DNA of 61,555 bases, counting the filler, from Stramenopiles sp. TOSAG23-6 (taxonomy: Eukaryota): assembly GCA_900128565.1 (NCBI GenBank). It is 2 parts of 2 records of this genome, joined end to end, with 100 filler letters (N's around TTAATTAATTAA, not from the genome) between each part and the next. Parts side by side here need not be neighbours in the genome. Positions count along the whole stretch, not along the records: positions 1 to 30,741 come from LT635964.1; positions 30,842 to 61,555 come from LT635965.1. The stretch is one strand, 5' to 3'. The notes beneath the pieces are model-generated. The model was given only the letters and a program-made list of their open reading frames with translations. It was not told the origin of the DNA and did not search any database. Positions 100 to 61,555 of this stretch are shown here, piece by piece (position 1 is the stretch's first letter; the number at the start of each line of letters is the position of its first letter). Made by a program: the position numbers and the translations under genes.

Positions 100-3000
100 A
101 TATTAAATGGACATAACCAAGGCGAGCCTATATGATGGTCGCCTAATGCAGCTGCAACGGATAATGCGGAGCAGGAGTAAAACATATCCACGTATTTTGG
201 AAAAATATTTGAAAAAAAAAATCATTAGGTACAAAATTTCGTACGAAAAAAAATTCGAAGTTGAAAAAAAATAAAACGTACACTTCCAAATGTTTGTTAA
301 TATGATGATGATGGAGTCTTTCATACAAGGTTGTCAGATGACTTAAACTCCGAAATAAAGTATGTATTTTGGAAAAATATTTGAAAAAAAAATCGTTAGG
401 TATGAAATTTCGTATGAAAACAAATTCGATTTTTTTGTTAAAAAAAAAAATAAAAATATTTGAAAAAAAAATCGTTAGGTACAACATTTCGTATGAAAAA
501 AAAATTAAATTAGAAATTCATATAAAACGTACATTATCTTCATCCCATTCTTTACTTCTATTCAGTGTAATATGTTCAACTATAAAACGAAAACGCCGAA
601 AATCTCTAGTCAGAATTTCCAAAACTGTTTTACTACATACATTGCGTTTACAATGTTTTTTGGAAAAATATTTCAAAAAAAATCTAAACACAATTGTTAG
701 GTACAAAATTTTTTTACCAAAAAAAAAAATAAATTTGAAATTGAAAAAAAATAAAACATACATGCTGTTTGCTATTTTGATTGCTACCATCCTTACCATC
801 ACAAAATGAATTAGAATTCTGAGCTTGATGAAGGATTCCATTTGAATTATTTTGTCTACCATTGTCATAATTAAAAAGAGATTTTGGTTCAATTTCTGAA
901 CAAACTGAGCTGATATTATCATAAGTATTCATACTTAATTTTGCAATCATGACTAACGGAAATTGTAATAATGAATCCGATGTATTTTGGAAAAATATTT
1001 CAAAAAAAATCTAAAACATTTTGTTAGGTACAAAATTTCGTACGAAAAAAAAATGTAGACAAAAAATTGAAAAAAAATAAAACATACATGCTCCAGAATC
1101 ACTTATATGAGAATCTTGTACCATTTCTTCCGGCATAAAAATAACTCGCCAATCCGTTAATAGCAAGGTACCAATTTTTAGTTCGTTAGGAGTAGGGTCA
1201 GGACAAGAACCCAATATCGCAAGAATATGTATTGTGAAAAAATATTTTGTGAAAAAAATCGTTAGGTACGGAATTTCGTACGAAAAAAAAACTTGAATTT
1301 GAAATTCATTATGAAATTGTACATGAGGAATAACCAGTTCTGGGAGTTCTGTGGCTTTGGGTGGAAGAGAAAGAACTCTAGCCTGGGAAGCACGCTGATC
1401 TTTTGATGCATCAAGTAGTAACTTCACACGGCGTTTTCTGAAAAAGTCATTACGAAATTTTGATGCATACGTATTGCAAAAAAATATTGCAAAACAAAAA
1501 AATCGTTAGGTACAAAATTTCGTACGAAAAAAATAAATTCGAAATTGAAAAAAAAAACGTACACTGTGTACATATAAAATGATCCCATGCAATGCGAAGC
1601 GACATCAACTCACCGAAATTAAAAAACGTTTTCATTGCAAATTCTGCAACAGCATTTTGTAATTGAGTCCGTCTCGATGTATTTTGGAAAAATATTTCAA
1701 AAAAAAAAAATTAATTTTTGTTAGGTACAAAATTTCGTACGAAAAAAAATTCGATTTTTTGTTTAAAAAAAAAGATAAAACATACATGCTGCTAAAGATC
1801 TTGCACTGAACGGTTGGCGTGATTCCAACATTCCGCCCTCTCCTTTTTTTAATTCCATCTCTTCAATCGCTTTTACAAATATATTTTGGAAAAATATTTC
1901 AAAATTTACTATAAAAAAATTTGTTAGGTACAAAATTTTCAAAAAAAAAAAATCAATTTTTTGTTAAAAAAAAAAAATAAAACATACATAATTCAAAACT
2001 TCCTGGGGAAAAAATGGGTTTTTCTCCTTCAGTATTTTTAGTATTTTTAGTATTTTTAGTATTTTTAGTATTTTTAGATTGTTCACTCACCCACTTGCGA
2101 AGAACCTTTCGAGACCATCGAGATAGTTGGGCACCTGAAAGGTTTACAATTGTATTTTCATTACTAGTTGTAGAAAAATGAAAACCACGTTTTGCCGCTG
2201 CAGCTACGAAACGCCGAGTGACGTCATCAACTGCTTCTAGATTGGATCCAAGTCGAGTTTTTTCCACATTTGCTAAATTTTCAGCTCTTATATCAGCATC
2301 TATTTGAGCAACTTCTGCTTCTTTTTTTGCTGCATCTAACAAATCAATGTGTATTTTGGAAAAATATTTCAAAAAAAATCTTAAAAAATTGTTAGGTACA
2401 AAATTTCCTATGGAAAAATAAATTCAATTTCAAATTTAAAAAAAAAAAAAAAACATACATTTGTTTTTTCTAGATCCAAACACTTTTCAATATATAATTT
2501 ATCACTTGCAGAATCGTTAGGGTTAGGATTTTGGAGGCTAAAAGGAAGCGCCAATCTACCTTCGCTTCGAATATTTCGTATGAATTGTGGAAAAATATTT
2601 CAAAAAAATCTAAAAACATTTGTTAGGTACAAAATTTCCTATGAAAAAATAAATTCGAAATTGAAAAAAAATAAAACATACATTGATTCGTGAACAATAT
2701 TTTCACTCGGAGATATCGAACAAATGGCCTCAACCAAAATTTCTCCAGTCACATATAATGAAAAGAAATATTTCCAAAAATTGATTTTTTTGTTAGGTAC
2801 GAAATGTTCTATGAAAAACAAACTTAAAATTCATGATAAATAAAAACGAATATAATAAAAACGAATATAATAAAAACGAATAGTATATAAAAACTCAAAA
2901 AAAAATCTTTTTTGTTTTTTTTGTTTTTTTTTGTTTTTTTTTGTTTAGGTACGAACTTTCCTATGAAAAAAAATAATAAATGAAAACATACATGCTTTGA

Positions 3001-3804
3001 ACGTTTCGTCCGTTTGCCTAAGGGAAGCCATTCAGAACAGATGGTGCACGCAGATAGTGAACATATACTCATGTATTGTGAAAAAATATTTCAAAAAAAA
3101 ATTAATTTTTGTTAGGTACAAAATTTCGTACGAAAACAAATTCAAAATTGAAAAAAAAATAAAACATACATAGCAGCTTTCCCAAGAAATTTTCCAGTGC
3201 CAATTATAGATCGTTTGTGAAAAACTTCGACTTCAATAAAAGAGTGTAACCCTTGAGACAACGGAAATACAAACATCATGTCCCAACTAGGGTTAATACC
3301 CCCCTTCTTCTCACCCTCAATCTTATGGTCCAGTGTACATGTATTGTGAATTTTTTTTTTATAAAATTTGTTAGGTACAAAATTTCGTACAAAAAAAACA
3401 AAAATTTGAAATTGATAAAACGTACAGGCTTTTCCGCTACCAACACGTACTTCACAATATGGATTTAATGTTCCAACAGTTCCTTTGGAAGTCAAGTTTC
3501 GGGCGCTAGAAATTTTTACAACGATAAAAGGACCAAGGTCTTGCTGTTTGTGCCGAAGTGAAGACAACTCAAAGAACTCCTTTAATCCTCCTTGCGATCT
3601 ATAAAGTCGAACTGCAAGAGCTGGACGCTTTCTACACGATGCACGGGAATTAACTATAGGTACTATGTCTTCTACTGTAGGTGTATCTTGACCACCACCT
3701 TGATTTATTACAGTCTTCTTAGAATGAAAGTCACTATCAGACGAAGTTTCAACAGAAGGACAGGCATTTCGTTTTTTTCGTGAAAATGGGTTCCAACTCT
3801 TCAT
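1..3804 (-). CDS. C2-domain + PH-GRAM protein, probably myotubularin-related; 14 non-canonical introns, 3' end outside the window
   Basis: Removing 14 repeat introns gives one continuous frame from ATG 3804. C2 motifs: VKISSARNL..LNPYCEV..NPSWD..FVF..EVEVF..FLGKA..EWLPL..VTGEI. GRAM-like motifs: GTLLLTDWRVIF, FPLVMIAKL, LEILTRDFRRFRF. Confidence 0.75.
190..281 (-). mobile_element. Introner-type intron, GT-GT
   Basis: GT|GTACGT...CCAAAATAC-GT; 2-nt duplication GT/GT; frame restored (HLEVDMF). Confidence 0.85.
362..532 (-). mobile_element. Dimeric introner-type intron, GT-AT
   Basis: Two family cores with two CCTAAC sites inside one pair of termini; AT/AT duplication. Confidence 0.8.
653..761 (-). 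mobile_element. Introner-type intron, GT-AT
   Basis: AT|GTATGT...CCAAAAAAC-AT; joins SKQH to CKRN in frame. Confidence 0.85.
980..1087 (-). mobile_element. Introner-type intron, GT-AT
   Basis: Consensus termini; restores SGASDSLLQFP. Confidence 0.85.
1227..1322 (-). mobile_element. Introner-type intron, GT-AT (96 nt, stop-free in frame)
   Basis: AT|GTACAA...CACAATAC-AT; family core; reads as a 32-aa F/Y-rich insert in ORF 1011..1427. Confidence 0.8.
1469..1562 (-). mobile_element. Introner-type intron, GT-GT
   Basis: GT|GTACGT...TGCAATAC-GT; restores CTQYASKF. Confidence 0.85.
1677..1785 (-). mobile_element. Introner-type intron, GT-AT
   Basis: Consensus termini; frame restored (LAASRRTQ). 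Confidence 0.85.
1879..1987 (-). mobile_element. Introner-type intron, GT-AT
   Basis: Ends CCAAAATAT-AT; restores SFELFVKA. Confidence 0.85.
2031..2077. repeat. 9-bp coding tandem repeat (KNT)x~5
   Basis: (tagtatttt)n seen directly. Confidence 0.9.
2349..2458 (-). mobile_element. Introner-type intron, GT-AC
   Basis: AT|GTATGT...CCAAAATAC-AC; restores EKTNIDLL. Confidence 0.8.
2580..2681 (-). mobile_element. Introner-type intron, GT-AT
   Basis: Ends CCACAATTC-AT; nearly identical to the PRMT5 intron at 44436. Confidence 0.85.
2753..2991 (-). mobile_element. Long degenerate dimeric introner-type intron, GT-AT
   Basis: Two degenerate cores plus internal short tandem repeats; removal restores C2 end RSKH|VTGEILV. 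Confidence 0.75.
3071..3169 (-). mobile_element. Introner-type intron, GT-AT
   Basis: Consensus termini; restores FLGKAAMSI. Confidence 0.85.
3339..3425 (-). mobile_element. Introner-type intron, GT-AT (87 nt, stop-free in frame)
   Basis: CT|GTACGT...CACAATAC-AT inside the C2 domain. Confidence 0.8.
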
Positions 3805-11000: not shown

Positions 11001-14000
11001 GGGGCATTTACTAAGTTGAATAGAACTTTGGCAAAAGTAACCAGCTTTACATTTTCCTTCCTTTTCGGCATCTTTTGTATCTCGCTCAATCATTCTACAA
11101 ATTTTTCTTTCACCCTCTGAGTCTTGTACTTTGTGGGTATATTCAAGGCATGCTAACCTGTTTTGTTGGTGGCATATTTCACTCAGACCTGCTTGTGCTT
11201 CACAGGATGCGACCCAAATTCTTTCCGTAACCGACCTTTTAAAAACACCGTTGCAAGAATTTTCTGTGGTTTTACTACTATCATTGCATGTGTTGTTAGT
11301 ATAATCCCATACTCTATCAAAATCTTTCATAAAAGGCCCACCTTTGCAATCTGTCTCTGTAGTTTCATTAGGGTCATTACAAGAAAATACCTTTGTGCAG
11401 TGAGTTGGACACAATACATTTCCTTCTACAATAGTACTGGGACAATCCATAACTTCACATAAACCGGAACAAAAAGCACCTGCTTGACATACATCGGAAT
11501 CATGAGTTTGTGCTCGATTAGGACAGAATCTGCCATCTCTACATGGTCTACAAGTAGGAGTGTGAATTAATGCGCTGAATTTTCCAGCTTCACATTCTTC
11601 ACACTTGAAACTACCATCATCCTTTTGTGTATAATGCTCACCTGGACCACATGTTAAAGCCAACTTTGCTTCACTAAAATCACCTTTACCTTTATCATTT
11701 TCGGCTTGAACGCGTACAGAAATATTTGTCGTTCTGTTGACAGTCATAGTATGAACTACATTAAAAATACGCTCTGCGCCAGAAGAACAACCCCCAACAT
11801 TTGTTTCGCCAGATGCACCAACATTGAAATTGAACCCAGATATCATAGCCCCTCCATTTTCCGGGCACGTATACTTTACTTCAATGGTCAGTCGTGTTGA
11901 TGAGTCAGTTGTCGTGGCTGATTTTATAAAAGCTCTCAATATTGTTGGTGTTTTAGGAACAGTTGCGTCTAACGCTACATTGAATTCTGCCGTTAAATCT
12001 GTCCTTCCTAGACTATTTTCACCCCATGCAGTTATTTTGGCACCTCTAGTTCCCTCTTCAAGTCTAGTGACTGCAATTGATGACCCTGTCTCTACACTAA
12101 GCCACAACTTGTATTCACTTGATGATGTACACGAACAACTAGAATTGTTCCAGCTACATGCCGAATCACTATTGCAATCAGACTCCTCCAAAGAAGTGCA
12201 GCTACATGGCTTATCCTCAAGAGTTGGGTTAAATGTGCCCGTTGTAACATCTCCGCTGCGAGAAGTAGTAATCATGGCTAACTCCCCCATCCGTTTTCCA
12301 GATAAGAATTGTACAAGTAAGTTTTTATGGTCATCATTTGTGTCTGGATCAATATACGCACCTAATTCAAACGCATCGAGTTCAGTGTCAATAAGTGTTC
12401 CACTCAAATCACCATTGATAAATGTGTGAAATATAACATACTTGTCAGATTCGTCCTTTCCAAATGCCTTACCATCTTCGTTCACTCCATACAAGGCTGG
12501 CAACTCGTACACAACTATAGTTCCAGCAGCAGCAATATATTGAATTTGAGGTTTTGTGTATTTACCCACACGCCCATCCGGTTCCCAGAGAGGTACAGAT
12601 GCAAGAACACACACTTGATTATCTGCATCATACGTAAATATAATTCCTGCATCAACACATTTGGAAATTTTTTCTTCAATATCTAAATCTTCTTCGACAT
12701 CTCCGCATTCACCGGCATTGATAGCAAATAGTGAACATTCCTCTTTACAATGATCTTCATTGTAGTCGCCATCGTGTTCTAAATAACAACGACGCTGATT
12801 CCATACATTGTGAAAAAATATTTCAAAACAAAATCGTTAGGTACGAAATTTCGTACAAAAATTAAATTCGTAATTGAAAAAAAAATAAAACAAACATGGT
12901 TTCTCTTCTCCAACATTTAGCGTATGTGTAATAGATTCTTGAGATGATCCCCAACATACATTATAGTTCCTATCTATTGGTGCAATCTTGCAAGAGTTTC
13001 CTAAAACACTTAAACAATTGGACACATTCTGATTTGGACATTTATCTGAACACACGTCATCGACCCATTCACAAGCACTCCCTATATCAAGACAATCACT
13101 ACTGTTTAGGTGTGCATAACAAGGAATATGATATTTTCTTATACATTGTGGTGAAATATTAATCAACCCAATATCGTTACTAGAAAATTCAACTTGTTGT
13201 GTCATTCCTGGGGCTTCAATACCGAAAATAGTATAACTTATGGTAGTGTCCTCAATATCGGAAATTATTGGGGCATCCCACGTAACGGTAATTGTACTGC
13301 GCTCTGCGGTTGTGCTGCTGGTGGTTATTTTTGAAAAATATAGAATACTGTCAACAGTAAACTTAAACTTCCAACCAACGTAGTGATGCAGCGTAGGATT
13401 GAATAGGAAATTTTCTGGTGCATCAAGTATTGTAGACATGCGGTTTGCGCATCCCGATATTTTAGGGCATATTTCTTTACTCATCGTACTACACTGACAA
13501 TTATTTACATCATATGTGTTGCATTCACATGTTTCATCATTGGAATTATATGTACAATTGTCGTCACTTGAGCATTCTGAGACACTTTTGCTCTCACAGG
13601 CACATGTTGTTGAGCATTTACACGATTCATCCCAATGACAACCACCAGTGGTGTCACATTCAGATTCATCATATTGTTCACAAGTACAACTGCAATTACC
13701 AAAACAACGACTTTCAATATTTGAAAGTGATCCTGAAATACCTGTGACAGCTTTGTCACACGGCGCAGTAGTTACTTTGACATATGGCCTTGGCGAAGTT
13801 TCTTCAAAATAGTCAATAATGAAATGCATTTTATGTGTTTTAGTAGGAGAAAGAATTTTGTCCTGTTTTGACCAACCAAACATATCATCAATCATTGGAA
13901 CCCTGGTGATCTGTAAAGGGGTATCTTCTGAAATAGCATTATAAAATTCGTTATCATTCTCTAAAAGTTTATAGCAAACAGACACGTGGTCATCTTCGTC

Positions 14001-23000: not shown

Positions 23001-25021
23001 ATAATTTGATCCAGGATTTGCAATTTCACACCACGTAATATCACCATTATGAAAACATACATTAAGTGTCATTCCAGTACCTTCGCCACCTTTTGTTGCT
23101 ACACCTTGAAAACATTCATTTTGGACGTCATATCTTCCCTCATTATCACCATTATCATCCCGACAAGAAATCAAAGGTACAAATTCTAATTCAGGATTTT
23201 CATCATTTTCAGGGCGGATTTCATTTAAGAGAAATTGTTTTCTTGGAAATGATGAACCTGCAATGTAGGATTCAAATTTACACCTACTCGATTGTTCGTC
23301 GGAGTCTAAAATAGATTGTTCAATTGCTGAAGATTCAGTTACATAAATCTCAGTACTTAAAATGTTTTGATCACTCCGATAATGCATTGTATTATCAGGC
23401 ATTATTGAAATTTGTGCACTTGTTGGAGTAGTCTCTTCCTGTAAAGTGTTAAAAGTTGCCAAAATCTCTGGACACATTCCAACAATTTGAATCGGGGGCC
23501 AATTGCCGTCATGGTAGCTCAAACTACTAACACTCGGATTTAGAAAGTCAATATTACACGCATGACAGCTATGACTATCATGCTGGGCATTGCACGAATC
23601 AAAGGCACAACTTCTTGGGCACCTCCCAGACTCAAGAAAATCGAGGGAGAAATAAAATTCAACATCGTCGTCTTCAATGTTTGCGTAAAATTCCATATTT
23701 GAAGAAGGATTTGAATTCATTGAGCAGATACTAGTGAACCGAATAACGATAACAAGCGTCTGATTTTTATTAACACTTTCAGATAAAGTGATTGTGAGTT
23801 TATCTGAGGAGTCTACAGTGATACATATATTGTGAAAAAATATCTTTTTGTAAAATTTGTTAGGTACGAAATTTCGTACAAAAAAAAAATTCGAAATTAA
23901 AAAAAATAAAACATACTCTCCGCAATATTTGTTTCGTGTGGATAGTTTCCGCGGACATCCAGAATACTGCAGTTCTCAATATAGTCTGGAAATATCCTAT
24001 TTGCAGAATTGCCATTTATATCATGTCTTATGAAGATTTTGTCACCAGCAGATAAACTTTGACTCGTTTCAAACTCGGCGTAGAAAACATTTGGTACGCG
24101 ACCAATTACTTGATTATCAAATTTTACTCGAAAGTTGCCATTATTACCACCATTACCATTATTACCACCATTACCATTATTACCACCATTACCATAACCA
24201 TCACTATCATCATTACCACCACCACCTGCACCTCCATCATTATAATCATTACCTCCACCACCTGCAGCACCTCCATTATCATTGACTTCACATACACCAG
24301 TTGATCCATTATTGTGATTATATCCCACACACTTTGGCTTGTCACTAGGGCACTGGCNCTGTGAGCTAACAGAGGAAGGATAAGACTGTCCACAGCAAGG
24401 TGAACTGGATTCGAAGTCTGCCTGGCAACCTTCATCATCTGCACCTCCACCACCTCCATTATTATTGACTTCACAAGCACCCCACGTATGTTGCGAAGAA
24501 CTTGAACTTTGAACATACCCCGTACACTTTGGCTTGTCAGTAGGACACTGGTACTGTGAGGGAACATTAGAAGGAATAGACTGTCCACAGCAAGGTGAAC
24601 TTGAGGAGTAGTCAGCCATACAATCTTGATTGCAAGCACCCCACGTGAATTCATTTGCATTTAAACTATAAACATACCCCATACACTTTGGCTTGTCAGT
24701 AGGACACCGGTACTGTGAGGAAACAGTCTGAGGAACAGACTGTCCACAGCAAGGTGTAGTTGAGGAGTAGTCAGCCATACAACCATTATTATTGACTTCA
24801 CAAGCACCCAACGTTTCTTGCAAAGAAGTTCTAACATATCCCACACACTTTGGCTTGTTAGAAGGACACCGTTTCCCTGAGGGAACATACTGAGGATCAG
24901 TCTGTCCACAGCAAGGTGAACTTGAGCCGTAGTCAGCCTTGCAACCGACCATTGCATCAACCGCAACTAAATGAATTAAGCAAAACAATACATATATTCT
25001 TCTGAACATGTGATTCGACAT
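5071..25021 (-). CDS. Giant (~6,500 aa) Cys-rich cell-surface multi-pass protein: signal peptide, Cys repeats, PAN/apple-like, FN3-like, many GCC2/GCC3 (CPxGxYC) repeats, EF-hand pair, multi-TM region, WW domain
   Basis: Eight same-strand ORFs are joined by introns at 23825 and 12803 and by five +1 frameshifts; a third intron at 21846 lies in frame inside one ORF. One EF-hand pair (DIDGNGVVGLDE / DTDHNGAISFTE) straddles a break. WW motif WRKSYSRSKDAPYWVNSVTGDIVWSDP. Confidence 0.75.
12803..12895 (-). mobile_element. Introner-type intron, GT-AT
   Basis: AT|GTTTGT...CACAATGT-AT; joins EKPW-NQRRC in frame into ORF 10155..12614. Confidence 0.85.
21846..21938 (-). mobile_element. Degenerate introner-type intron, GT-AT (93 nt, stop-free)
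   Basis: GT|GTATGT...CCACAATAC-AT; reads as a 31-aa F/Y-rich insert. Confidence 0.75.
23825..23916 (-). mobile_element. Introner-type intron, GT-AT
   Basis: GA|GTATGT...CACAATAT-AT; restores AESITVDSS in frame into ORF 19389..23720. Confidence 0.85.
24285..24945 (-). repeat. Four ~50-aa six-cysteine coding repeats (CxADYxSSSPCCGQ..CPxDKPKCxGY..GAC)
   Basis: Directly visible at DNA and protein level; followed by GGNNGN microrepeats at about 24140-24200. Confidence 0.9.
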
Positions 25022-30686: not shown

Positions 30687-30741
30687 ATGTATTTTGGAAA
30701 AATATTTCAAAAAAAAATCTTAAAAAATTTGTTAGGTACAA
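30687..30741 (-). mobile_element. Introner-type intron, 3' half only (runs into gap)
   Basis: CCTAAC...CCAAAATAC-AT followed by SLC37 exon. Confidence 0.8.
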
Positions 30742-43760: not shown

Positions 43761-45849
43761 TTAAAGTCCTATCCAATGCGACTGACCATTTACATTATGT
43801 ACACTTGACAATACAGGTGTCACTACTGACCATTCGTACCAAACTTTTGTACTTGAAACACAACGCCACATATGAAGTTCGATTTCTTCACCCTTTTTAC
43901 AATAAAATGGTGTTTTTAAAGGTAAGTACAATGGGAACCAACTAAACATTCCTAAAGAAAAAGTCTTTGGATTAATTGATATAAAAGCATCACAATCCTC
44001 TGGAGATAAAATTTCATAATTTTGTTCAATTGATTTTTTTGATTTTGGTACGGAATTTTGTACTATTTTACTTTTACTTTCTTGTCGTTGGTGTAAAGGA
44101 GATTCAAAATAACCAGCAAAGCCATGAACCATTGTCCCTTCTTTTTGTTTGAATTTTAAAATTTTGTACCTGTTATTATTTATATCACTTATAGGACGTA
44201 AAGGATGATTAAATGTAAAACAAGGTTTTGCTTCAGCTAATTGTTTAAAATTATGCATTTTAACCACATATCCAGTTTCAAATGGTTTTTTTGTTGGATG
44301 GGAATGAGCCCGCACCTTATTCCATAATTTTGATGATGTTATTGGTGCAACAAATGATGTATATTGACAAGGAATACTGACACCCGTATCTTTCAAAAAT
44401 GTTTGAACACCATATAAACATTCAGGTGAAAGCTCATGAATTGTGGAAAAATATTTCAAAAAAATCTAAAAAAATTTGTTAGGTACAAAATTTCTTATGA
44501 AAAAATAAATTCGAAATTGAAAAAAAAGTAAAACATACATTATCACTAAAGGAACCTAGTAATTCACTAATCATTATATCTGCCTTGACAGGTGCGTTCC
44601 AATGACGCATATCACAGGACACAATAACGACGTCTTCACCCCACTGTAAATCATTATGAAGGCTTTTTAATGTAACTACTGCATTTTGATTTTTTTCAAC
44701 TGCATAAATCTTCACTTTTTGGCCGACTTTCTCAGAAGCTCTTAATGCAGCTCTTATGAGTGGACCTCTACCAGCACCAACAACCATGATGATTGGTACT
44801 AATGTACCTGTTCCCTCTCTTATATGACGTTTTTTAAGTTCTTCTAAAGCATGAAAAGTCGCATTTTCATACTCTTTATATTTGACTGGATCACGCTCAA
44901 ATACTTCATACGTCGCCGATTCTAAATTGTCCATTAAAGGCTGTAGTGGAGCTTGCAACACATCATAATACGGTTCCTCAAATAAATCAGCTTCTGTAGG
45001 TACATCCTGAGTCTTACTCATATGATTGATATATAATGCATACACTCCTAATCCGTTATTGTGAAGACTATTACCTCGAATAAGCACCTGAACTTTAGAA
45101 CTCATTAAAGCTCTTAAAATTTTTTGGTGTTGACGAGACAAAGTTGGAAAACCAGAGGAATTTGTCAGAAAAATTTCTGTTGGAATAACTACTGCTTTTA
45201 TAGGTTCAGATAGCCAACGGGTTTGTTCTTCCCATGAAGGTAGATTTTTAGTGAATACTAGACACACAAAAAGACTTGGGGAGTGGTTGCACATACAACG
45301 AAAACGATTCCACGCTTCCCAAGGGTCAGCCGATACGTCAAGAGAAGGTTGGTTGTCATTAGACATATCAGATATATCACTTGTCAATGTATTCCTATAT
45401 GCCAGTGGTACTTCTACCCACATTTGAGCATGTCCAGGTATTGCAACCTTTTGGCTGATACAGCGAGCATAGTTTATACAGTTGTAGTAAAGAGGTGGAA
45501 GGAGAATAGCTGGAACGGATAAGTGTGTGGCCCACGCCAACTCTTGAAATAAAGTTTTCTCAGCAGTGGCACGGACATTATCTGAAACAGAGTCCAAATT
45601 AAACCATCGAGATATTTTACCTACTATCATAGTGGTCCATTGTCCACTAGGCATCACTTTATCCGTTCGTGTAAATGGGCCTTGGCGTCCCGCTGATATG
45701 CCGTTGTCATCCCGATGGAAACGAGGATGCACTAATGGAGCTACAACAAAATCAAAGTGTTCCTTTACGGCATTATTTAAACTTTCCACTAAATCAGGGC
45801 AACAGTGCAGGTCTAATCCAGTGAATGTCCGAGGGCGACTTGCAGTCAT
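43761..45849 (-). CDS. PRMT5: Protein arginine N-methyltransferase 5 (2 exons)
   Basis: LQAPLQPLMDNLESATYEVFERDPVKY, VVGAGRGPL, SELLGSFSDN|ELSPECL, GMFSWFP, KVWYEW. Confidence 0.97.
44436..44538 (-). mobile_element. Introner-type intron, GT-AT
   Basis: Precise removal restores the double-E loop GSFSDNELSPECL. Confidence 0.95.
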
Positions 45850-46063: not shown

Positions 46064-49007
46064 ATGCTTCGAGTTATCCTTCTTTGTATTTGTTTGAAAA
46101 ATGCCAATGGTAATATGAGTATGATGTGGCCTACTGGTGAAGTAAACTTTAATTATGGCAACAACGGGCTCACATCATGGTCATTTTACATTAGAGCTTT
46201 CAATCTTGCCCCAGGTGGTTTTGGGGATGCCGAGTTTGGGTGGGGTCAGTGGTCGAAACCATCATCCACAGATATAAACTTTAATGATGTTTGTGCGATC
46301 AATCCGTTAGGTTTTACTTGTGAGGATGGTGAGAATGGAGGCGCAGGTTGCATCACATATGACCGCGAGTCACTGCCAAATACTCAAACGGCATGTGAAA
46401 AGTCGTGTAAAAATGAAAGTGACGAAGAGAAGAACGGGGTTTCGAACTGCCTAAAGTCCCAATGGACAGACAATTTAAAACAATTTTGTGGTTCAGCTGA
46501 TTATTCTGAACGTGAGAAATGTGAATATTGGATTTGTGGAAATGATAATAAGGGAGGTGTCGTTGGTTCTATTGAGGGAGGAATGGGTTATTGGCCATAT
46601 ACTTTAGAGAAGAAACAGGTAACGTGGATGCTTCCAGGTGCTACAACATCTAATTATGAAATGTTTGCTGGAACATTCCTTGTATGTTTTTTTTCTATTT
46701 CGTGGTTTTGAATGCTTTTTGTGGTGAGGTTCAATTGGACGATTCACTTTTAAAAAAAAAGAATTGTAGAGCAAATTTCATACCTAACAAATTTCGAATT
46801 TGACATATTTTTTCAGAATACTTGCTGATCAAGCACAGCCATGTAATAATTTGGGCGGGGCTGTTCGAATATCAAACCATCTTCTTGTACCAAGTGATAT
46901 GGTGAGCTTTGAAGGTGGTGATGTGATAGATGGATTTTTAGGATATATGCTTGCTGATACACCAATAGGAAAACGTAGTGAAACTGATGATGTGAATAAT
47001 TGGACTATTATCATTGATACTGAAAACTTTTCTGGTCCTGTACTTTACATTTCAAATTGGTTTTGGGAAACACGAGTAAATTGGCATCCTAAATCAAAGA
47101 GTTGGAGTCACCCTAATGCAAAAGTTGGTTACATTGCACGTGGGGCTGAAGGTAAAATTATGGGTAAAATTTCAAATACCATAAAAAACTCAAATGATGA
47201 ATATTGGGCATATACTACACGATGGGGATTACCTAAAGATTCCACAAAAATAAATGAAGAATATACTTCAACAATAATGACTGGGCATTCTCAGTATGAG
47301 GAACCAACTCAAGCAGGTGAGAAAAATTGGATTGAAAACACAATTGAACCAATTCTTAGTGGTAACAAAACAGTAGAAACAATGCCTTCAGATGAAATTT
47401 TAAATAAATCAAAATCTGCTCGAATTCAACCAAAATGTAATCAAGTTGATCGCTCTGGTATTTCAAAGGGTGAAATGCATTTAATACATGAAAACACCAA
47501 AACAACTTTTGTAGGTTTTGGGGTCAATTACGATGATCCATCAGATTCAGATAATAAAACAAATGGATGTCCTATCCGGTATAAGCTTGATAAAACAATA
47601 ATGGATTGTACAACGAGAAGTGATTTATGTCTTGCACCGAAATATCTCACCATCAAAAATACTTCTGGAGAAGCAGAGCATCTTTCCACTGTTAAAAAGG
47701 ATAGTGATGTCCCAACAGATGTGAAGTCACAATTAGAGAAGGAAAATCCGCTTCCAAAAGGTGATTCGCGAGGTCTTCGGAATGCAACAGGGTATTACTA
47801 TGAGCCAGCAAATGAGGAAAAACGATGTTTCAATGATCCTGGTCCATCAGATCAAAAATTATATTGTGTACGAACCAACACAAAAAGTTGGATTGGGTAT
47901 AAATGGTATAAATTTGTTGATCAACCAGAATTAACAAATATTTTTGCATCAATTCCGACACCTGAAGAAAGAAAAAAAGTAAAGGACTTTATGCAAGCTC
48001 GAATTGAAAGACTTCATTCTTATCAAAATTCAGTTAAGGGTGGAGTTCAATGGTTTGATGCACCTGGTCAATTACCTTCGAAAAAAGTAAAGATTGACGA
48101 AAATTTACTAATACAACCACCTGCTGGAATGGAAATTGGATATGTTCCAATTCCTATTTATCAAAAACTTAGAAAAAAGCCGAAAAATTGTGATGTTGTT
48201 ATTGGATCAAAAACAACAGAACCTGATCCATTGCCAAATGATTATTTTTCAAAATATCCTGGACAAACAAGAGATCGAGAAAAATTTACTTGTAAAAATG
48301 ATGCAAACGCAAAGAGTTTGAATCCAGCTAAATTTTATCCCGGTACAATTTTTCCAACTCCACCAAAAGGTACAACAGCTACCGTCCAAGAACGGATTGC
48401 ATATAAATATGAAGTACCTACATTAGGTAGTGATGACGTAATAAAAAAAGATGATACCGGTAGTGATGACGTAATAAAAAAAGATGATACCGGTAGTGAT
48501 GACGTAATAAAAAAAGATGATACCGGTAGTGATGACGTAATAAAAAAAGATGATACCAGTAAAGATGCAGAAAAGGAATTCAATCCAAACGCAAAAATAT
48601 CATTTAGTGCTGACATGACAGTCACATACAATATGGAATATGATCCTAGTGTTAACACTGCAAAACTTAAGAGTGAGATTGTGACTGCAGTTGAAACGGG
48701 AGGTCTACTATCCGTGAAAAATGGTACAAATGGAGTGAATATTTATGATGGTTCTCTCAAAGCAGATTTTACTGTACAGATGACTGCTCCCGAATCAGAG
48801 AAAAGTGAACTTCAGTTGTTGGGAAAAGAAATGGAAGCACTAACAAAAGATCGATTGTTACTGGCGAGGGTCAATAATGGTTTAGTTCCATCTGTTACTG
48901 CACAAAATGTAAGAGTGTCTCCATTGCGTGCTAATGAAACTTCATCGAAAGAATTTAGATCATACGCTAGTTTAAGCTTTTGTATTATTTTAATGTTTAC
49001 CTTCTAA
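46064..49007 (+). CDS. Secreted, possibly GPI-anchored protein of unknown function (2 exons)
   Basis: Signal peptide, W/G/Y-rich body, repeat stalk, hydrophobic C-terminus. Confidence 0.75.
46682..46823 (+). mobile_element. Diverged introner-type intron, GT-TT
   Basis: TT|GTATGT...TACCTAAC...TTCAGAATAC-TT; TT/TT duplication; using the upstream CAG gives TGA after 3 codons. Confidence 0.8.
48426..48557 (+). repeat. 33-bp coding tandem repeat x4 (GSDDVIKKDDT)
   Basis: Four near-exact units. Confidence 0.95.
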
Positions 49008-52026: not shown

Positions 52027-54611
52027 ATGGTTACTTCAGAAAATACGTCAAGTGGTGCATTTGCAACGAAAACATTTTCAGCAACGATTGAAAGTGTAAA
52101 CACAAGATTTAAAACGGACCAAAATAAACGTATAGTTCAACTTCAACATCGCTCCAAAGCGATATCGACAGATGTAGAAAAAATGCGTCACGTGAAACTG
52201 AAAGAACGGGAAATATCATTTAAAAAAAAGGATAAGCTAGTTTGTTTACAACAAAAATATAGTGAATATCGCAGGCAACTAGAAAAAAAAGACAGTTCTA
52301 TTAGAAGACTTAAACAGCAGATAGCAACCGTCAATGCAAAAATTCAGCAACATCAATCGAACCACGAGCTTTATAGTAGCAAGTCACACAGTTCACAGAG
52401 TAGCTTATATGGAAACGTACGAAATGATCTGTATAGAATTAAAAGCAATGTAAGCCAAGAGAGAACTACTCAGTCTGATTTACTTGACAATTTGAAAATA
52501 TCAGATGAAGAGCGCGTGAAACTTCAAACAATGTCTTTACAGGTATATTCATCTTTTTTAGATGATAAAAAAAAGAAAATGAAGCAGGACATTATAATTG
52601 ATTCTTTACTAGATGAATGTATAGAATTAGAAAAAGATATCAAAAAAGTTTCAGAAAAAAAAATTAAATTGCTAGAAAAAAAACACATTCTTTCAAATTT
52701 ATTTTCGATATTAACTGATAAAGCAGAAGCATTTACACATAGTTCAAAAAACTTAATGAATAGTCGAGTTAAAGATGTTGAAATAGGTAAAGAAAAACTT
52801 CAGAAATCAAGACTAATATGTTTTATTTTTTTTCAAATTCGAATTTTTTTTTCATACGTAATTTCGTACCTAACGATTTTTTTTTGAAATATTTTTCCAA
52901 AATACAAGTATACGTAGAAATGAAACATTTTGCAAATATGTTAAAGAATGCAAAAAGTCCAACTATGAAGGAAATACGACATAAACGTAATATCATAACT
53001 GAATATAAACAAAAATTGTTTAATTGTAAGCAACATAATGCTGTATTGTATGACATTTTGTTGAAGCAAACTAATAATAGAAAAAGTGATTATACTAATT
53101 GTACAGAAAAATCAAATTCATTGGATACTCAGCAGTTAGAATGTGTAACCCTAACCACTAAAAAGAATATACAGGTAGAAAAAGGAAAATTAGAAAATTG
53201 TGTTTCACAATTTGAAGCAACAAAGAAAACACTTGTAGAGGCACGTTTTTTAGCTAGCAAATTATGTACAAAATTAGATATCAAAACAAGTCGTGTGGAA
53301 CGAATTGATGGGCAAATAAAGAAATCATGTAGTCGTAAGGAACATTTAGAAACAAAAATAAAATCAACCATAGAAAACACATTACATTACAGAAAGAAAC
53401 ACAAAAATTTAAAAAAGAAATTTTTATTAGATTATAAGCAATGTGAAAAACTGCAGTCAATTATTGATGCTGCAAAATATCGTATTAAAAATGTTGAGTC
53501 TACTATAACACAGAGAATGATATCCTTACAATGTAAAACACAAAATGTAATGAAGGTAAAGCGCAACAATTCACAGAAATCAAAATTGTTAGACAATTCT
53601 AAAGAAAGTAATTTAATGATCAGTAAGAAAAAATTAAATTTAAAAAGTAAAATAAAACAATATGAAGAACTGGAATCATATGCACTGACGAACCACACAA
53701 AGTTTTCATTGCGTTTGGATGAAATGAAGGAAACAATATCAAAGTTATACAAAAGTACGGAAAGTTATACAGATATATTGCAACGCAAGGTAAATCGCGC
53801 TTCCGATATAAATTGTCAAATAAAGCAGTGCAAACTTGAACAATACAACTGTTTGGAAATTTATAAAATACGAAAAACACTATGTGAAGCTTTAGTTGGC
53901 CAGCATTTGAAGTGCAAAGAAAGTCAAAGAGTTACTTTAGAAAAAATGAATACATCTTTGAATACCTACCAAAGAGAATTGCAAAAGTTGAAAGAAAAAA
54001 CAGTTTCATTCGGTGTAAAGCTTCAATATGTAAATGTATCAAAACAGAATTGTGATAAAATTCGTAGATTATCTCAAACATGTATGAGAGAGGCCCAAAA
54101 AAATCATTTTGCAGTATTAAAAGAATCATCTAGCACTATGACACCCGCATCGTTGGAATCGAATATTGCTCGTTGTGACAATAAAAATTCTACAATTGAT
54201 AAAAATTATGTTTTATTAATACAAACACTAAGAAAAAGAGAGGAAAGTTCCATTTTAACAAATACGTTTCTAAAGAAAAATATACAAAACAATGAGAAAA
54301 TGAGACATCGGTTGGGTCAAGTACAAATAATAAAAAAGAAATTGTTGGAGGATTGTGGAAATTCAACAATTGAATGGCAAAATAAAATATCAAAAATGAA
54401 GATAAAAACTCTAAAGATTAAATCACAAATTGGCCGTATAAAGTCCAGAGAATCTAACTTAAAGAAAATGCTCGATGAGGAAAATCAAATTTCAAAACAT
54501 TTAGAGTTTTTCGCAAAAAAATGGAAAAAAAAAGAAAAAGCAATTCTAAGAAAACTTGAAATACTTGAAAATAGTACCACTCCTAACCCTAGTAGTAACG
54601 TCTACCCGTGA
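52027..54611 (+). CDS. Lys-rich coiled-coil protein (2 exons), function unknown
   Basis: ORFs 52027 and 52818 join in frame on removal of 52816-52907. Confidence 0.75.
52816..52907 (+). mobile_element. Introner-type intron, AT-AA
   Basis: TA|ATATGT...CCAAAATAC-AA|GTA; removing 92 nt joins the two long ORFs. Confidence 0.75.
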
Positions 54612-57865: not shown

Positions 57866-59880
57866 TCAATTTTCAATACAGTTTACTCTATAACAATGGA
57901 ATCTGTTTGCTAATTTCCGTACGTTGTTTAATTTTGTGCGTGTTTCGGTTTCTTCTGCGATTAACACGTGGCATTGTTTTGAACATTTGTAGCAAGACAT
58001 AAGCTTTACTGCCCAGGCTCCTGACTTTATTCTATTTGTATTTTTCCCCTCTGTTCCAGTATAAAACCATTGAAATAAATCTTTTACAGAACTATTACAT
58101 ATATTTGATGAAAGAGTAAACTTGGTATACCAAATTGCTAAATCACTCAAAAGACTAATGGTGGAATTAATAGTGGCAAGTGAATCACAAAGCCACTTTT
58201 TATATTCCATATGTAAAAAATCTATTTGCTGCATTTGTTGAATTTTTATATCATTTATATTGATTGATTGATTGTCAATATTTTCTAAAATTTCTATTTG
58301 GGAAAAGGCAAAGTGACTGAAATCATTAAATATTTCAAAACCTTTCATACATAAAACACTCAATTGTTTTTTTTTGAAAGGTGATATATTAACATTAGTG
58401 AGATTATCATTGGCATTTGATTTTTTTGATTGCTTTGTTAAAGGTGAAAGAATTTCTGTGCGTTGATTCATCGTGTTCCTAGATTTTATGTCGTTAGATT
58501 TCATCTTAGTCTTTGGTATTGATTCTTCAATATTGACTTTACTAGATTCTTCAAATTCTTCAATATTACTTGATTCTTCAATATTGACTTTACTAGATTC
58601 TTCAAATTCTTCAATATTACTTGATTCTTCAATATTGACTTTACTAGATACTTCAAATTCTTCAATATTACTCGATTCTTCAATATTGACTTCACTCTCA
58701 GAATTCAGTTCTGCCCAAGACTCCATCATATCATCATCATCATCATCATCATCTTCATATGTTTCATTTTCATCATCTTCTTGTGCACTACTACTTGACT
58801 CATTATCACTATCATGTAATGCTTTTACCGTTTCTAATATTTCCACAAGCTTTCGACGAGCCAACCAAACTTTACCTTTCAAGGAGTCGTTAATATATTT
58901 TGTGAAAAAATATTTTTTTTTTTGTAAAAATATTTGTTAGCTATGAAATTTCGTATGAAAAAAAAATTATGAAAAAAAAATCGATTTTTAAAACGTACAT
59001 AGGCATGCTGTAATAATTCACCTGATGTCGGTCTATCAGCTGGATCCTTCTGTAAACATATCTCAAGAAAACTGGACAATAATGTACCTGCCATTTCTTC
59101 ATCTCGTAGTCTAGGTGAAGGTAAAGAAGGGATTTTTGTAAGTGCTTGCATGGGAACCAAATCAAAGTTGGGTGGTTCCATTTCAGCCATTTCGATGGCA
59201 GTTACAGCGAGTGACCAAATATCGGCAGATGCATCATATTCATTTCCATCTATGACTTCAGGAGCCATCCAATACGGAGTTCCAACAAATGTGCTACTTT
59301 TTGCTACGTTGCCACTCAGCATTGTAGAAACACCAAAATCTGCCATTTTGGCTACTCCACCAGAAGCTAATAAAATATTTCCGCCCTTGATATCTCGGTG
59401 TATAATTTTCTTACTATGTAGATATGAAAGACCACGCAAACTATCTTGTAATATTATTGAAATTTCATTAGGTGTAAACGGAATACCACGGCGATTGTAT
59501 ATGTCACTGACAGAGCCGTAAACACATTGCTCCATTGTGATCCAAACAGCATTCTCTTTATAATAAGTACCTATGTACCGTACAATATTAGGATGAGAAC
59601 ATGCTCGTAACATTTCGATTTCGTCTTTCATCCCTACAAGTTCTTCACGTCTTCGACCCTTGTGTGTGGGAAGTCGAATGACTTTAATTGCAACAATCTG
59701 ATTTGTCTCTAAATGCTCAGCCTGATAAACAGCGCCAAATGAACCTTTTCCTAGGCGATCAAGAAGTTTAAATAGAAGTGTTGGGTCAGTCCGACTCAAT
59801 GGGATACCTCGCTTTAACAAAGATGTGCGGCGAGCCATTGACTCGCGGGCCGGCTTGATTCGGCGCTTTCCTCGCTTCAT
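57866..59880 (-). CDS. STE20-family Ser/Thr kinase (2 exons; start codon uncertain)
   Basis: GKGSFG, VAIK, HRDIKGGN, DFG, GTPYWMAPE; acidic tail after splicing. Confidence 0.92.
58520..58691 (-). repeat. 48-bp coding tandem repeat x~3.5 (SKVNIEESSNIEEFEE)
   Basis: Seen directly. Confidence 0.9.
58895..58998 (-). mobile_element. Introner-type intron, GT-AT
   Basis: AT|GTACGT...CACAAAAT-AT; restores kinase end ELLQHAYI. Confidence 0.85.
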
Positions 59881-60258: not shown

Positions 60259-61555
60259 ATGTCAAATTCTCCACCAGCGGACAAGCTAACATCTGTTGAT
60301 TTAAGTAGGCCACATTACTCAATGGATAGTGCCATCCGTGAAAGAACACGAAGTAACTCTTTTACCGAGTCATTACGTCCTTCTCCACCTATTGCCTACA
60401 ATTGGACATCTGTTGCTGTGCCAAGAACTGCATATAATGTGCGCTTGTACTGTATACCTCACGCGGGTGCGTTTGGCACGAATCCTTATTCTAATTGGGG
60501 GAAACTCCTTCCTGAAACAATTGAGCAAGTCACAATTTTACCTGGTGGAAAAGCGCGACGTGACTCTATCTCTGATGGGCGACAAGACTATGAAAACGAT
60601 GCCACGTCTATAGTTGCAGGAATCATTCAAATATTAGCAATGTGTGATAGACCATTTTGTCTTTTTGGTCACTCTGCGGGAGCTACTTTGGCTTTACAAG
60701 TTGTGATATCGCTTCAGCGCCAAGGTGCAGTATTGCCTATTAAACTATTTTTATCAGGATGCTCTCCACCACAAAAATACATTCCATTGCGATCCGATTG
60801 GAAAGAAGAAAAAGTTTTATGCAAATTAATTCGTGAGTGGGGAGGAACACCAGAAGATGTTTTACAAGATATCGAACTCAAAAAATTGTTGTTGAATCGT
60901 CTTCGAGCCGATCTCGCTTGCGCGGAACAATCATCTAGACTCATAAAACATGCTCTCGCCAAAATGTCAATACAGTGTGATGTTACCATTATTGGTGGGA
61001 AAGATGATCGAACGGTACCAGTAGCAGAATTAATTCACTGGGAATCTCATATTGGTGATGAACAAACCTGCTGTACAATGAAAATAAAAATCTTTCCGGG
61101 TGGTCATTTCTATCTTGATGAAACATCTCAATTGTCAAATTCAATTTCTAATTTACATAAATGGTTAAATGACGAAATTAGATTTGCTTTACAAAATGAA
61201 CTTGAACGTGCAAATTCACAAATTGAGCTATGGAATTCAAATACTATGGAATATGTATGTTTTATTTTTTTTCAAATTAGATTTTTTTTTTCGTACGAAA
61301 TTTTGTACCTAACGATTTTTGTTTTCAAATATTTTTCCAAAATACATACACCATATACACCGAAATATGATAGGAAGAAGATGCGTGTTCCTGCTTGGTG
61401 TGATCGAATATTATGGAAAGAAAAGAATAACAATACTAATAATAATAATAACAATAATAATACTATTCATAATAATAATTCAAAAGTTGAACTTTTACAT
61501 TATGTATGTTTTATTTTTTTTCAAATTCGAATTTTTTTTTCGTACGAAATTTTGT
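60259..61555 (+). CDS. Type II thioesterase domain followed by an inositol 5-phosphatase C-terminal motif; runs off the window (absent from the ORF track)
   Basis: Hand translation from ATG 60259: RLYCIPHAG, FGHSAG, LFLSGCSPP, LRADL, GGKDD, FPGGHFYL, then RVPAWCDRILWK. Confidence 0.82.
   Translation, partial: MSNSPPADKLTSVDLSRPHYSMDSAIRERTRSNSFTESLRPSPPIAYNWTSVAVPRTAYNVRLYCIPHAGAFGTNPYSNWGKLLPETIEQVTILPGGKARRDSISDGRQDYENDATSIVAGIIQILAMCDRPFCLFGHSAGATLALQVVISLQRQGAVLPIKLFLSGCSPPQKYIPLRSDWKEEKVLCKLIREWGGTPEDVLQDIELKKLLLNRLRADLACAEQSSRLIKHALAKMSIQCDVTIIGGKDDRTVPVAELIHWESHIGDEQTCCTMKIKIFPGGHFYLDETSQLSNSISNLHKWLNDEIRFALQNELERANSQIELWNSNTMEYVCFIFFQIRFFFSYEILYLTIFVFKYFSKIHTPYTPKYDRKKMRVPAWCDRILWKEKNNNTNNNNNNNNTIHNNNSKVELLHYVCFIFFQIRIFFSYEIL
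61255..61347 (+). mobile_element. Introner-type intron, GT-AT (93 nt, stop-free)
   Basis: Consensus termini and core. Confidence 0.85.
61504..61555 (+). mobile_element. Introner-type intron (cut by window end)
   Basis: AT|GTATGT donor and TTTCGTACGAAA core. Confidence 0.8.

What the first reader, a model, noticed from the sequence alone, without database searches (positions are those of the whole stretch)
190..61347. The introns are a mobile introner family with a 2-nt target-site duplication that supplies the acceptor
Seen: consensus GTATGTTTTATTTTTTTTCAATTTCGAATTT(T)nTTCGTACGAAATTTTGTACCTAAC(G/A)A(T)nGAAATATTTTTCCAAAATAC with short inverted termini GTAT...ATAC. In 23 of 30 complete copies the 2 nt after the element equal the 2 nt before it. 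These co-vary (AT/AT mostly, GT/GT at 190 and 1469, TT/TT at 46682), as expected for a TSD rather than a fixed signal. Established: algal introners co-opt a TSD-derived AG or GT as one splice site. Inference: here an NT duplication of varied sequence is tolerated as the acceptor, so insertion is scarless at many more sites. No transposase is in the window.
Basis: partly seen in the sequence, partly recalled or inferred. Interest (0 to 1): 0.85.

Follow-up and report, generated by a model that had tools for sequence, protein, structure and literature searches.

The report
Transposon-like introns lacking the AG end
Nearly all introns in this stretch of a marine protist genome are copies of one ~90-base mobile-looking element that is spliced out without the usual AG end, using a duplicated two-base flank instead, which also explains why the one public gene model compared here is mis-spliced.

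Summary
The window, from a marine stramenopile-type eukaryote, holds 31 loci of one ~90-nt element: 29 complete copies and 2 cut by the window ends. All 29 complete copies lie in sense orientation in 10 genes.

Removing the element plus exactly 2 nt restores the reading frame. Thirteen introns of one gene then give a single 732-aa ORF; other offsets give 153 aa or less. RNA contigs from two studies skip exactly 93 nt (91+2) at copy 12803-12895. In PRMT5, only this junction keeps the DNELSPE motif, found in 116 of 119 homologues. None of the 29 inferred junctions ends in AG. The last three bases are CAT/TAT in 24 of 29.

The 2 nt after the element repeat the 2 nt before it in 24 of 29 copies (permutation p = 1e-4). 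Three of these are non-AT pairs (GT/GT twice, TT/TT once; p = 3e-4). The rebuilt empty site is palindrome-like, c-AT-g.

My reading is a MITE-type introner with a 2-bp duplication, as ISL2EU transposons make, that supplies the acceptor.

Not shown:
- an empty site;
- a transposase;
- the exact splice register (GT…AT or AT…AC).

I rate it a new variant of a known kind.

The parts
1..99 (-). 5' part of a copy cut by the window end (preceded by AT)
190..281 (-). copy, 92 nt with the 2-nt repeat; flanks GT/GT; starts GTACGT
362..532 (-). composite copy, 171 nt (two partial units in tandem); AT/AT
653..761 (-). copy, 109 nt; AT/AT; element ends AAAC
980..1087 (-). copy, 108 nt; AT/AT; internal TAG must be skipped
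1227..1322 (-). copy, 96 nt; AT/AT; degenerate 5' part (GTACAA)
1469..1562 (-). copy, 94 nt; GT/GT; starts GTACGT
1677..1785 (-). copy, 109 nt; AT/AT
1879..1987 (-). copy, 109 nt; AT/AT; element ends ATAT
2349..2458 (-). copy, 110 nt; flanks differ, AT/AC
2580..2681 (-). copy, 102 nt; AT/AT; 98% identical to the PRMT5 copy
2753..2991 (-). composite copy, 239 nt with internal short repeats; AT/AT
3071..3169 (-). copy, 99 nt; AT/AT
3339..3425 (-). copy, 87 nt; flanks differ, CT/AT; inside a C2 domain
12803..12895 (-). copy, 93 nt; AT/AT; starts GTTTGT, element ends ATGT; splicing seen in RNA
   Evidence: a 93-nt skip in RNA runs X7 and X13, none listed for DNA run X3
21846..21938 (-). diverged copy, 93 nt; flanks differ, GT/AT
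23825..23916 (-). copy, 92 nt; flanks differ, GA/AT
26124..26230 (+). diverged copy, 107 nt; AT/AT; starts GTAGGT
26344..26436 (+). copy, 93 nt; AT/AT; starts ATATGT (A at +1)
29166..29261 (-). copy, 96 nt; AT/AT; in a transporter gene
29610..29709 (-). copy, 100 nt; AT/AT
29971..30063 (-). copy, 93 nt; AT/AT
30242..30333 (-). copy, 92 nt; AT/AT
30687..30901 (-). copy interrupted by an assembly gap (N runs and a linker); AT/AT; length unknown
34733..34825 (+). copy, 93 nt; AT/AT
44436..44538 (-). copy, 103 nt; AT/AT; splits the DN|ELSPE motif of PRMT5; junction fixed by homology
46682..46823 (+). diverged copy, 142 nt; TT/TT; a TTTTTTCAG lies 7 nt before the inferred 3' end
52816..52907 (+). 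copy, 92 nt; flanks differ, TA/AA; starts ATATGT
58895..58998 (-). diverged copy, 104 nt; AT/AT; at the end of a protein kinase domain
61255..61347 (+). copy, 93 nt; AT/AT
61504..61555 (+). 5' part of a copy cut by the window end (preceded by AT)
28180..28282 (+). for contrast: the one ordinary intron established (GTAAGT...TACTAAC...CAG, 103 nt)
   Evidence: removing it joins the TBC-domain ORF

Best explanation
The element is a short, non-autonomous, transposon-derived intron (an introner). SHOWN: it occurs at 31 loci in the window, and all 29 complete copies are sense to the ORF they interrupt (the two end-cut copies cannot be tested for this). The cell removes the element plus exactly the next 2 nt from mRNA, so the message is restored without a scar. 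The element carries a standard donor (GTATGT), a standard branch site (TACCTAAC) 32-45 nt from the 3' end, a T-rich tract and a conserved 3' block (GAAATATTTTTCCAAAATAC). It carries no AG. The 2 nt that close the excised unit repeat the 2 nt before the element, mostly AT, and co-vary with them. INFERRED: (1) the repeat is a 2-bp target-site duplication made by a staggered cut in a palindrome-like c-AT-g target, as DDE transposases of the ISL2EU type do; (2) cleavage is at |GTATGT, so the downstream repeat copy is the acceptor (YAU| in place of YAG|), with GU and UU also accepted; (3) the spliceosome places the 3' cut by the conserved 3' block or by distance and not by AG, because upstream AGs must be skipped in 10 of 29 copies.
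For: Family: 34 profile matches; consensus as described. Introns: element+2 is the single best frame-restoring offset at 26 of 29 copies, with 2 ties within one codon and 1 copy untestable because of an N gap. Splicing all 13 introns of the first gene as element+2 gives one 732-aa ORF, against 153, 137 and 152 aa for +0, +1 and +3. Four transporter introns give 429 aa against 136-141. RNA: contigs of runs X7 and X13 (two studies) skip 93 nt = 91+2 at 12803-12895. DNA run X3 has no such joint, and one of its contigs runs into the intron. Homology: the element+2 junction in PRMT5 gives DN|ELSPE, and 116 of 119 homologues have DNE|LSPE. The AG 3 nt further on would delete the E. Repeat: 24 of 29 match, p=1.1e-4; 3 non-AT matches, p=2.9e-4; exactly 2 nt long. 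Target: C at -3 in 13 of 29 (p=4e-4) and G at +3 in 14 of 29 (p=6e-4). Recent copying: copies 2580-2681 and 44436-44538, in different genes 42 kb apart, are 98% identical. Abundance: DNA run X3 laid 7014 contigs, and its summed depth is 1557-10638 in the intron-rich bins against about 9 in unique sequence (not a copy number). ISL2EU elements make 2-bp duplications, typically AT (PMC4122938, passages).
Against: No empty site was seen: where DNA contigs of X3 are listed (records 16 and 20) they end inside introns, so the introns are present there too. No transposase is in the window. The inverted termini are only GTAT/ATAC, and RNA folds are no better than shuffles (z from -1.8 to +0.35). Five of 29 flanks differ, and two of these (GA/AT, TA/AA) need two changes. 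Of the 4 mismatched copies whose upstream pair is not AT (CT, GT, GA, TA), 3 still have AT downstream, which also fits an AT that belongs to the element. Only three non-AT pairs carry the co-variation. Only one junction is seen in RNA, and it is an AT/AT copy whose cut position is ambiguous by 3 nt. The TT acceptor rests on one frame match plus a signal peptide upstream and a hydrophobic tail downstream.
Confidence: 0.7

Rival explanations
1. Shifted register. The intron is xyGTATGT...ATAC, cut 2 nt upstream of GTATGT, so most copies would be AT...AC introns. The duplication would then supply the donor end, and the element its own AC acceptor.
For: Both registers give the same mRNA at all 24 repeat-flanked copies, and the RNA joint is ambiguous by 3 nt. 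The element ends in AC in most copies (18 of 29 excised units end CAT). In 4 of the 5 mismatched copies the register would end in AC. At 2349-2458 the difference T/C is a silent exon change under this register.
Against: The 5' end would then be AT 22, GT 3, CT, GA, TT, TA, while G of GTATGT is kept in 27 of 29 copies and fits the ordinary donor. The RNA-confirmed copy would be AT...GT in this register. At 3339-3425 the silent-change argument points the other way.
Confidence: 0.12
2. There is no duplication. The terminal AT belongs to the element as a fixed non-AG acceptor, and the upstream AT only reflects a preferred insertion or exon-end context.
For: AT closes 24 of 29 copies. Of the 4 mismatched copies whose upstream pair is not AT, 3 still end in AT.
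Against: Both copies that end in GT follow GT, and the one that ends in TT follows TT (p=2.9e-4). The symmetric c-AT-g context is not a splice-signal pattern.
Confidence: 0.1
3. The element spreads through RNA. Excised introns reverse-splice into other transcripts and are copied back into DNA, as proposed for fungal introner-like elements.
For: All 29 complete copies are genic and sense. There are no long inverted ends and no transposase in the window. Copies are strongly clustered: 13 in 2.2 kb of exon of one gene where 1.1 are expected.
Against: Reverse splicing makes no direct repeat and has no reason for a palindrome-like target. Only about 8% of the window is intergenic by my rough sum of the gaps between the ORFs listed, so finding no intergenic copy is weak evidence. 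Sense bias is expected from selection alone.
Confidence: 0.1
4. The copies are minor-spliceosome (U12-type) introns, whose 3' ends are known to be flexible.
For: From recall, not from a call here: U12-type introns can end in AC, AT or AA, and their 3' site is set by distance from the branch site. The TTCCAAAA block lies about 10 nt from the 3' end.
Against: The donor is GTATGT, not RTATCCTT. The clear branch motif CTAAC lies 32-45 nt from the 3' end. A T-rich tract is present.
Confidence: 0.03

Closest known systems
Introners of marine algae and protists (Micromonas, Aureococcus, Chrysochromulina, Symbiodinium and others; Gozashti et al. 2022, PMC9860276, passages read)
   Same: Many near-identical short introns in unrelated genes. 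Direct repeats at the borders. One splice site is carried by the element and the other taken from the duplication (described for Chrysochromulina: carries the 5' site, co-opts the 3' site). Removal leaves the mRNA length unchanged.
   Different: The passages read give 3-9 bp repeats for previously characterised families and 4 bp in the examples, and the co-opted site is a canonical AG or GT. Here the repeat is 2 bp and the co-opted acceptor is AT (also GT and TT), not AG. The 2025 follow-up survey (PMC12130899, methods passage) discarded families with unfamiliar splice sites that lacked transcript support, so a family like this could be missed.
Introner elements of Amoebophrya (Farhat et al. 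2021, PMC7789003, passages read)
   Same: Repeated, transposon-like introns with non-canonical ends and short direct repeats that overlap the exon/intron borders, in a marine protist.
   Different: Amoebophrya elements have 8-20 nt inverted repeats that form a hairpin, 3-5 nt direct repeats, no fixed terminal dinucleotides, and no detectable U1. Here the donor and branch site are textbook, the inverted ends are 4 nt, folding is weak, and only the 3' end departs from the rule.
Non-canonical introns of the tunicate Fritillaria borealis (Henriet et al. 2019, seen only as cited in the review PMC11282704, passages; Soo et al. 2025 preprint, abstract only)
   Same: Recently gained MITE-derived introns that a U2-type spliceosome removes despite non-GT/AG ends. 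The 3' site is formed with help of the duplicated target.
   Different: Fritillaria ends are mostly AG-AC and AG-AT, so both ends are non-canonical. That change is tied to duplicated U2AF subunits. Whether this organism has altered U2AF could not be tested here.
ISL2EU transposons of the PIF/Harbinger-ISL2EU-Spy group (PMC4122938, discussion passage; PMC4482050, passages)
   Same: They make a 2-bp target-site duplication, typically AT, and prefer AT-rich targets.
   Different: No ISL2EU transposase, THAP or YqaJ gene was available to test, and the element's ends were not compared with known ISL2EU ends. This is a lead, not a membership.
Euglenid nonconventional introns (review PMC11282704, passages)
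   Same: Non-canonical borders with repeats like target-site duplications at the junctions.
   Different: Those lack a pyrimidine tract, rely on pairing of the intron ends, and leave as circles. Here a donor, a branch site and a T-tract are present, and end pairing is negligible.

Membership tests
Introner (transposon-derived intron family) | Many highly similar introns at unrelated gene positions | tested here: met
   29 complete and 2 cut copies in 10 genes. Mean pairwise identity 78% over 26 copies (the 3 composite or gapped copies above 145 nt were left out); best pair 98%.
Introner (transposon-derived intron family) | Copies are removed from mRNA | tested here: met
   RNA joint at 12803-12895 in 2 runs. 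ORF chains of 13 and 4 introns. PRMT5 junction by homology. Direct RNA evidence exists for one copy only.
Introner (transposon-derived intron family) | Target-site duplication that matches within a locus but not between loci | tested here: met
   24 of 29 match; 3 non-AT matches, p=2.9e-4; the repeat is exactly 2 nt. The sample is small.
Introner (transposon-derived intron family) | Terminal inverted repeats | tested here: inconclusive
   Only GTAT...ATAC (4 nt; about 7 nt if one bulge is allowed, by eye). Folds are not better than shuffles.
Introner (transposon-derived intron family) | Presence/absence between strains or species (empty sites) | tested here: inconclusive
   The DNA contigs of run X3 that are listed end inside introns, so those introns are present. 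No skip of one intron's length is among the 15 joints shown for X3, and 259 further joints were not shown.
Introner (transposon-derived intron family) | A related autonomous element | not testable with these tools
   None among 30 ORFs in the window. No whole genome is held.
ISL2EU-type DNA transposon (non-autonomous derivative) | 2-bp target-site duplication, typically AT | tested here: met
   AT/AT in 21 of 29 copies, 2-nt repeat. The family trait is as stated in PMC4122938.
ISL2EU-type DNA transposon (non-autonomous derivative) | Ends shared with an element that encodes a DDE transposase (with THAP) and a YqaJ-type protein | not testable with these tools
   No genome to search. No family copies in the JGI metagenome, GTDB or IMG/VR scans.
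U12-type (minor) intron | Donor RTATCCTT, and a branch site 10-20 nt from the 3' end (motifs from recall) | tested here: not met
   The donor is GTATGT(TTTA). CTAAC lies 32-45 nt from the 3' end.
Amoebophrya-type introner element | 8-20 nt inverted repeats that form a hairpin joining the exon ends; 3-5 nt direct repeats | tested here: not met
   4-nt inverted ends and weak folds. The direct repeat is 2 nt.

The most novel reading that the evidence does not exclude
This lineage of uncultured marine stramenopiles has largely replaced its introns by one introner family: 31 of the 32 intron loci recognised here. Its spliceosome no longer needs AG. It keeps a textbook donor and branch site but places the 3' cut by the element's conserved 3' block or by a ruler. 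It passes over well-placed AGs and accepts AU, GU or UU. That would be a further independent re-tooling of 3' splice-site choice, after Fritillaria and Amoebophrya. It would be the cleanest one to study, because only the 3' end has changed.
Probability: 0.4. Interest if true: 0.85.

Novelty: new variant of a known kind. Interest (0 to 1): 0.72.

Why it matters
First, it would add a case in which a transposon makes scarless introns without providing or finding an AG. Far more sites become safe to insert into, because any c-AT-g-like site will do. That bears on how introns can multiply quickly.

Second, it isolates 3' splice-site recognition: the donor and branch site stay canonical while the acceptor is AU or NU. 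The question "what defines the 3' splice site when AG is absent" then becomes testable in one system.

Third, there is a practical point. Gene finders that insist on GT-AG will mis-model such genes. The one public model compared here (P0121, PRMT5) drops a conserved residue at this intron and removes six further in-frame pieces. Gene sets and counts for this group of abundant ocean protists may therefore be systematically wrong.

Tried and rejected
More copies from public DNA:
- Two scans of JGI metagenome contigs were run. The first found 0 stretches. The second found 118, of which the family profile matched one only weakly, so they are chance hits.
- Two scans of GTDB genomes were run. They found 0 stretches and one bacterial chance hit.
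- Two scans of IMG/VR were run. Of 31 loci, none is a family member.
- No whole genome is held for the window.

Resolving the splice register at mismatched copies:
- A search for short transcript-derived proteins over the exon 21939-23822 found nothing.
- A search of protein representatives with 21396-22505 gave two weak hits that do not cover the junction.
- Self-comparison of the giant protein and of its PAN domain was uninformative.

Read-laying:
- The intron-rich first 4 kb is swamped by cross-matches between copies.
- Only 15 of 274 joints were shown, so junctions of the first gene could not be read.
- Run X10 laid only 9 contigs.

Structure and RNA families:
- End-pairing or a hairpin as the excision guide is not supported; folds are not better than shuffles.
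- Rfam found no RNA family in the window.

Rejected by eye:
- A longer duplication (3-4 nt) or a TA duplication in another register.

Earlier notes of this scan:
- Nothing was found for this genome or this sequence.
- The two notes found by words concern ordinary Ostreococcus introns and have no bearing here.

Literature:
- Searches for introner with MAST-4, for introner with stramenopile and non-canonical splice, and for GT-AT with non-canonical introns and protist found no description of this family.
- The main texts of the two introner surveys do not mention MAST or stramenopiles. Their supplementary tables, which list Tara genomes, could not be opened and might list it.
Full report
WHAT IS THERE

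The window is eukaryotic, with long ORFs broken by short AT-rich inserts. A profile built from 8 clean copies finds 34 matches. I resolved these into 29 complete copies and 2 copies cut by the window ends.

- a donor-like GTATGTTTTA;
- a variable T-rich middle with the perfect palindrome TTTCGTACGAAA (20 matches with <=1 mismatch, 0.22 expected);
- TTTTGTACCTAAC;
- a T-run;
- GAAATATTTTTCCAAAATAC.

The three best-kept blocks are the 5' end, the branch-site block and the 3' block.

THE COPIES ARE INTRONS, AND THE EXCISED UNIT IS ELEMENT + 2 NT

All 29 complete copies are in sense orientation to the ORF they interrupt.
- Removing element+2 nt is the single best frame-restoring offset at 26 of 29. 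Two are ties within one codon (653-761, 61255-61347). One contains an assembly gap.
- The chain test is stronger. Splicing all 13 introns of the first gene (C2 domain by Pfam; a GRAM-like stretch by eye) as element+2 gives one 732-aa ORF, against 153, 137 and 152 aa for +0, +1 and +3. Four introns of a transporter give 429 aa against 136-141.
- RNA: contigs of two metatranscriptome runs from two studies (X7, X13) skip 93 nt at 12803-12895, which is 91+2. DNA run X3 has no such joint, and one of its contigs runs into the intron.
- Homology: in PRMT5 the element+2 junction gives DN|ELSPE, and 116 of 119 homologues have DNE|LSPE. An AG 3 nt further on would delete that E. An internal TAG would add ten residues inside the motif (my count from the sequence).
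- One ordinary intron is also present: 28180-28282, GTAAGT...TACTAAC...CAG. The organism therefore splices both kinds.

THE ENDS

- The last three bases of the excised unit are CAT 18, TAT 6, CGT 2, CAC 1, CTT 1 and CAA 1.
- A pyrimidine therefore stands at -3 in 29 of 29, A at -2 in 26, and T at -1 in 27. The unit never ends in AG.
- CTAAC lies 32-45 nt upstream of the 3' end (median 36).
- In 10 of 29 copies an AG lies between the branch site and the inferred 3' end and must be skipped.
- In the TT/TT copy, using the TTTTTTCAG that lies 7 nt before the end would give a stop after three codons. The upstream ORF starts with a signal peptide, and the downstream ORF ends in a hydrophobic tail. 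That suggests one gene joined at ...TT|. This is an inference.

THE 2-NT REPEAT

- The flanks are equal in 24 of 29 copies: AT/AT 21, GT/GT 2 and TT/TT 1.
- Shuffling the downstream dinucleotides gives p=1.1e-4 for 24 matches and p=2.9e-4 for 3 non-AT matches.
- Shifted registers give 1-11 matches.
- The identity is confined to two positions.
- The rebuilt empty sites show C at -3 in 13 of 29 (p=4e-4) and G at +3 in 14 of 29 (p=6e-4). The target is thus a palindrome-like c-AT-g. A symmetric target fits a DNA cut by a dimeric transposase better than it fits a splice signal.
- ISL2EU transposons make 2-bp duplications, typically AT (PMC4122938, passage). That is a lead only.

AGAINST A SIMPLE DUPLICATION

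- Five copies differ in their flanks, and two of them (GA/AT, TA/AA) need two changes.
- Of the 4 mismatched copies whose upstream pair is not AT (CT, GT, GA, TA), 3 still end in AT.
- I read this as selection keeping the intronic copy while the exonic copy drifts. An AT intrinsic to the element is the rival reading.

REGISTER

GT...AT and AT...AC give identical mRNA wherever the flanks match, and the RNA joint is ambiguous by 3 nt. I prefer |GTATGT for three reasons:
- G1 is kept in 27 of 29 copies;
- it is the standard donor;
- the RNA-confirmed copy would read AT...GT in the other register.

The three junctions that differ at the protein level could not be resolved.

MOBILITY

This is inferred, from four observations:
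- two copies in unlinked genes are 98% identical, including an atypical 3' end;
- the copies fall into sequence variants (alignment);
- summed depth is very high over intron-bearing bins in a seawater DNA run, 1557-10638 against about 9 (not a copy number);
- two copies are composite.

Copies are strongly clustered. There are 13 in 2.2 kb of exon of one gene where 1.1 are expected (p=2e-10), but only 3 in 19.7 kb of the giant gene where 9.8 are expected.

No empty site, no transposase and no copy in any other public collection searched was found.

ORGANISM AND PUBLIC ANNOTATION

The best protein match to the PRMT5 exon is a EukProt model named GSMAST32..., which is 100% identical in all aligned blocks. 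I take this as the same organism, of a MAST-3-type marine stramenopile lineage by its name. Seawater metagenomes and metatranscriptomes hold the sequence.

That model lacks seven in-frame pieces that the window encodes. One is the E at this intron, where a nearby AG was used. A paper on single-cell genomes of such lineages mentions introns only in its methods (PMC5778133, passages).

COMPARISON

Introners that co-opt a duplication-derived splice site are known (PMC9860276, passages). So are transposon-derived introns with non-canonical ends, in Amoebophrya (PMC7789003) and in Fritillaria (review PMC11282704; preprint abstract).

This family differs in combining four things:
- a textbook donor and branch site;
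- a 2-bp AT-type duplication;
- an acceptor that is never AG;
- almost no inverted repeat.

I found no description of it. The supplementary tables of the introner surveys were closed.

Noticed in passing
window 43761-46002 (-) compared with protein P0121: The public gene model for PRMT5 is identical to the window's ORF except that seven in-frame pieces are missing (14, 8, 8, 8, 7, 1 and 26 aa). It looks as if canonical introns were forced into exons, and at the family intron an AG 3 nt too far downstream was used.
   Followed up: partly
window 7177, 10184, 14285, 18598, 19435: DNA and RNA runs lack one base in the window's homopolymer runs at exactly the places where the long minus-strand ORFs change frame. 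5071-25093 is therefore probably one gene of about 6,600 aa (PAN and EF-hand matches) with only three family introns.
   Followed up: partly
window 100-3822 (-): The copies are extremely clustered: 13 in 2.2 kb of exon where 1.1 are expected. GC content and the density of AT or CATG do not explain it. Local hopping, or a chromatin or expression preference, is possible.
   Followed up: partly
window 362-532 and 2753-2991 (-): Two composite introns. One is made of two partial units in tandem. The other holds two branch-site blocks separated by short tandem repeats.
   Followed up: no
window about 30742-30840: An assembly gap (N runs around a TTAATTAATTAA linker) lies inside one intron copy, so the repeat probably broke the assembly there.
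   Followed up: no
window 1-4002, runs X7 and X13: Intron sequence has high summed depth in the RNA libraries too (218-3283 per bin). This could be unspliced transcripts, excised introns or carried-over DNA; the data cannot tell which.
   Followed up: no
window 2035-2080 (-), 31083-31334, 35930-36000: Short tandem repeats lie inside or beside coding sequence, for example a KNT repeat in the first gene's protein.
   Followed up: no
window 26344-26436 and 52816-52907 (+): Two otherwise well-kept copies begin ATATGT, with A at the first intron base. By reading frame they are still removed as element+2. How such a donor works with an AT or AA end is unexplained.
   Followed up: partly
window 36889-37052 (-): Two overlapping ORFs (DnaJ domain upstream, CCCH zinc finger downstream) change frame at an A-run. 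This is probably another one-base assembly error and not an intron.
   Followed up: no
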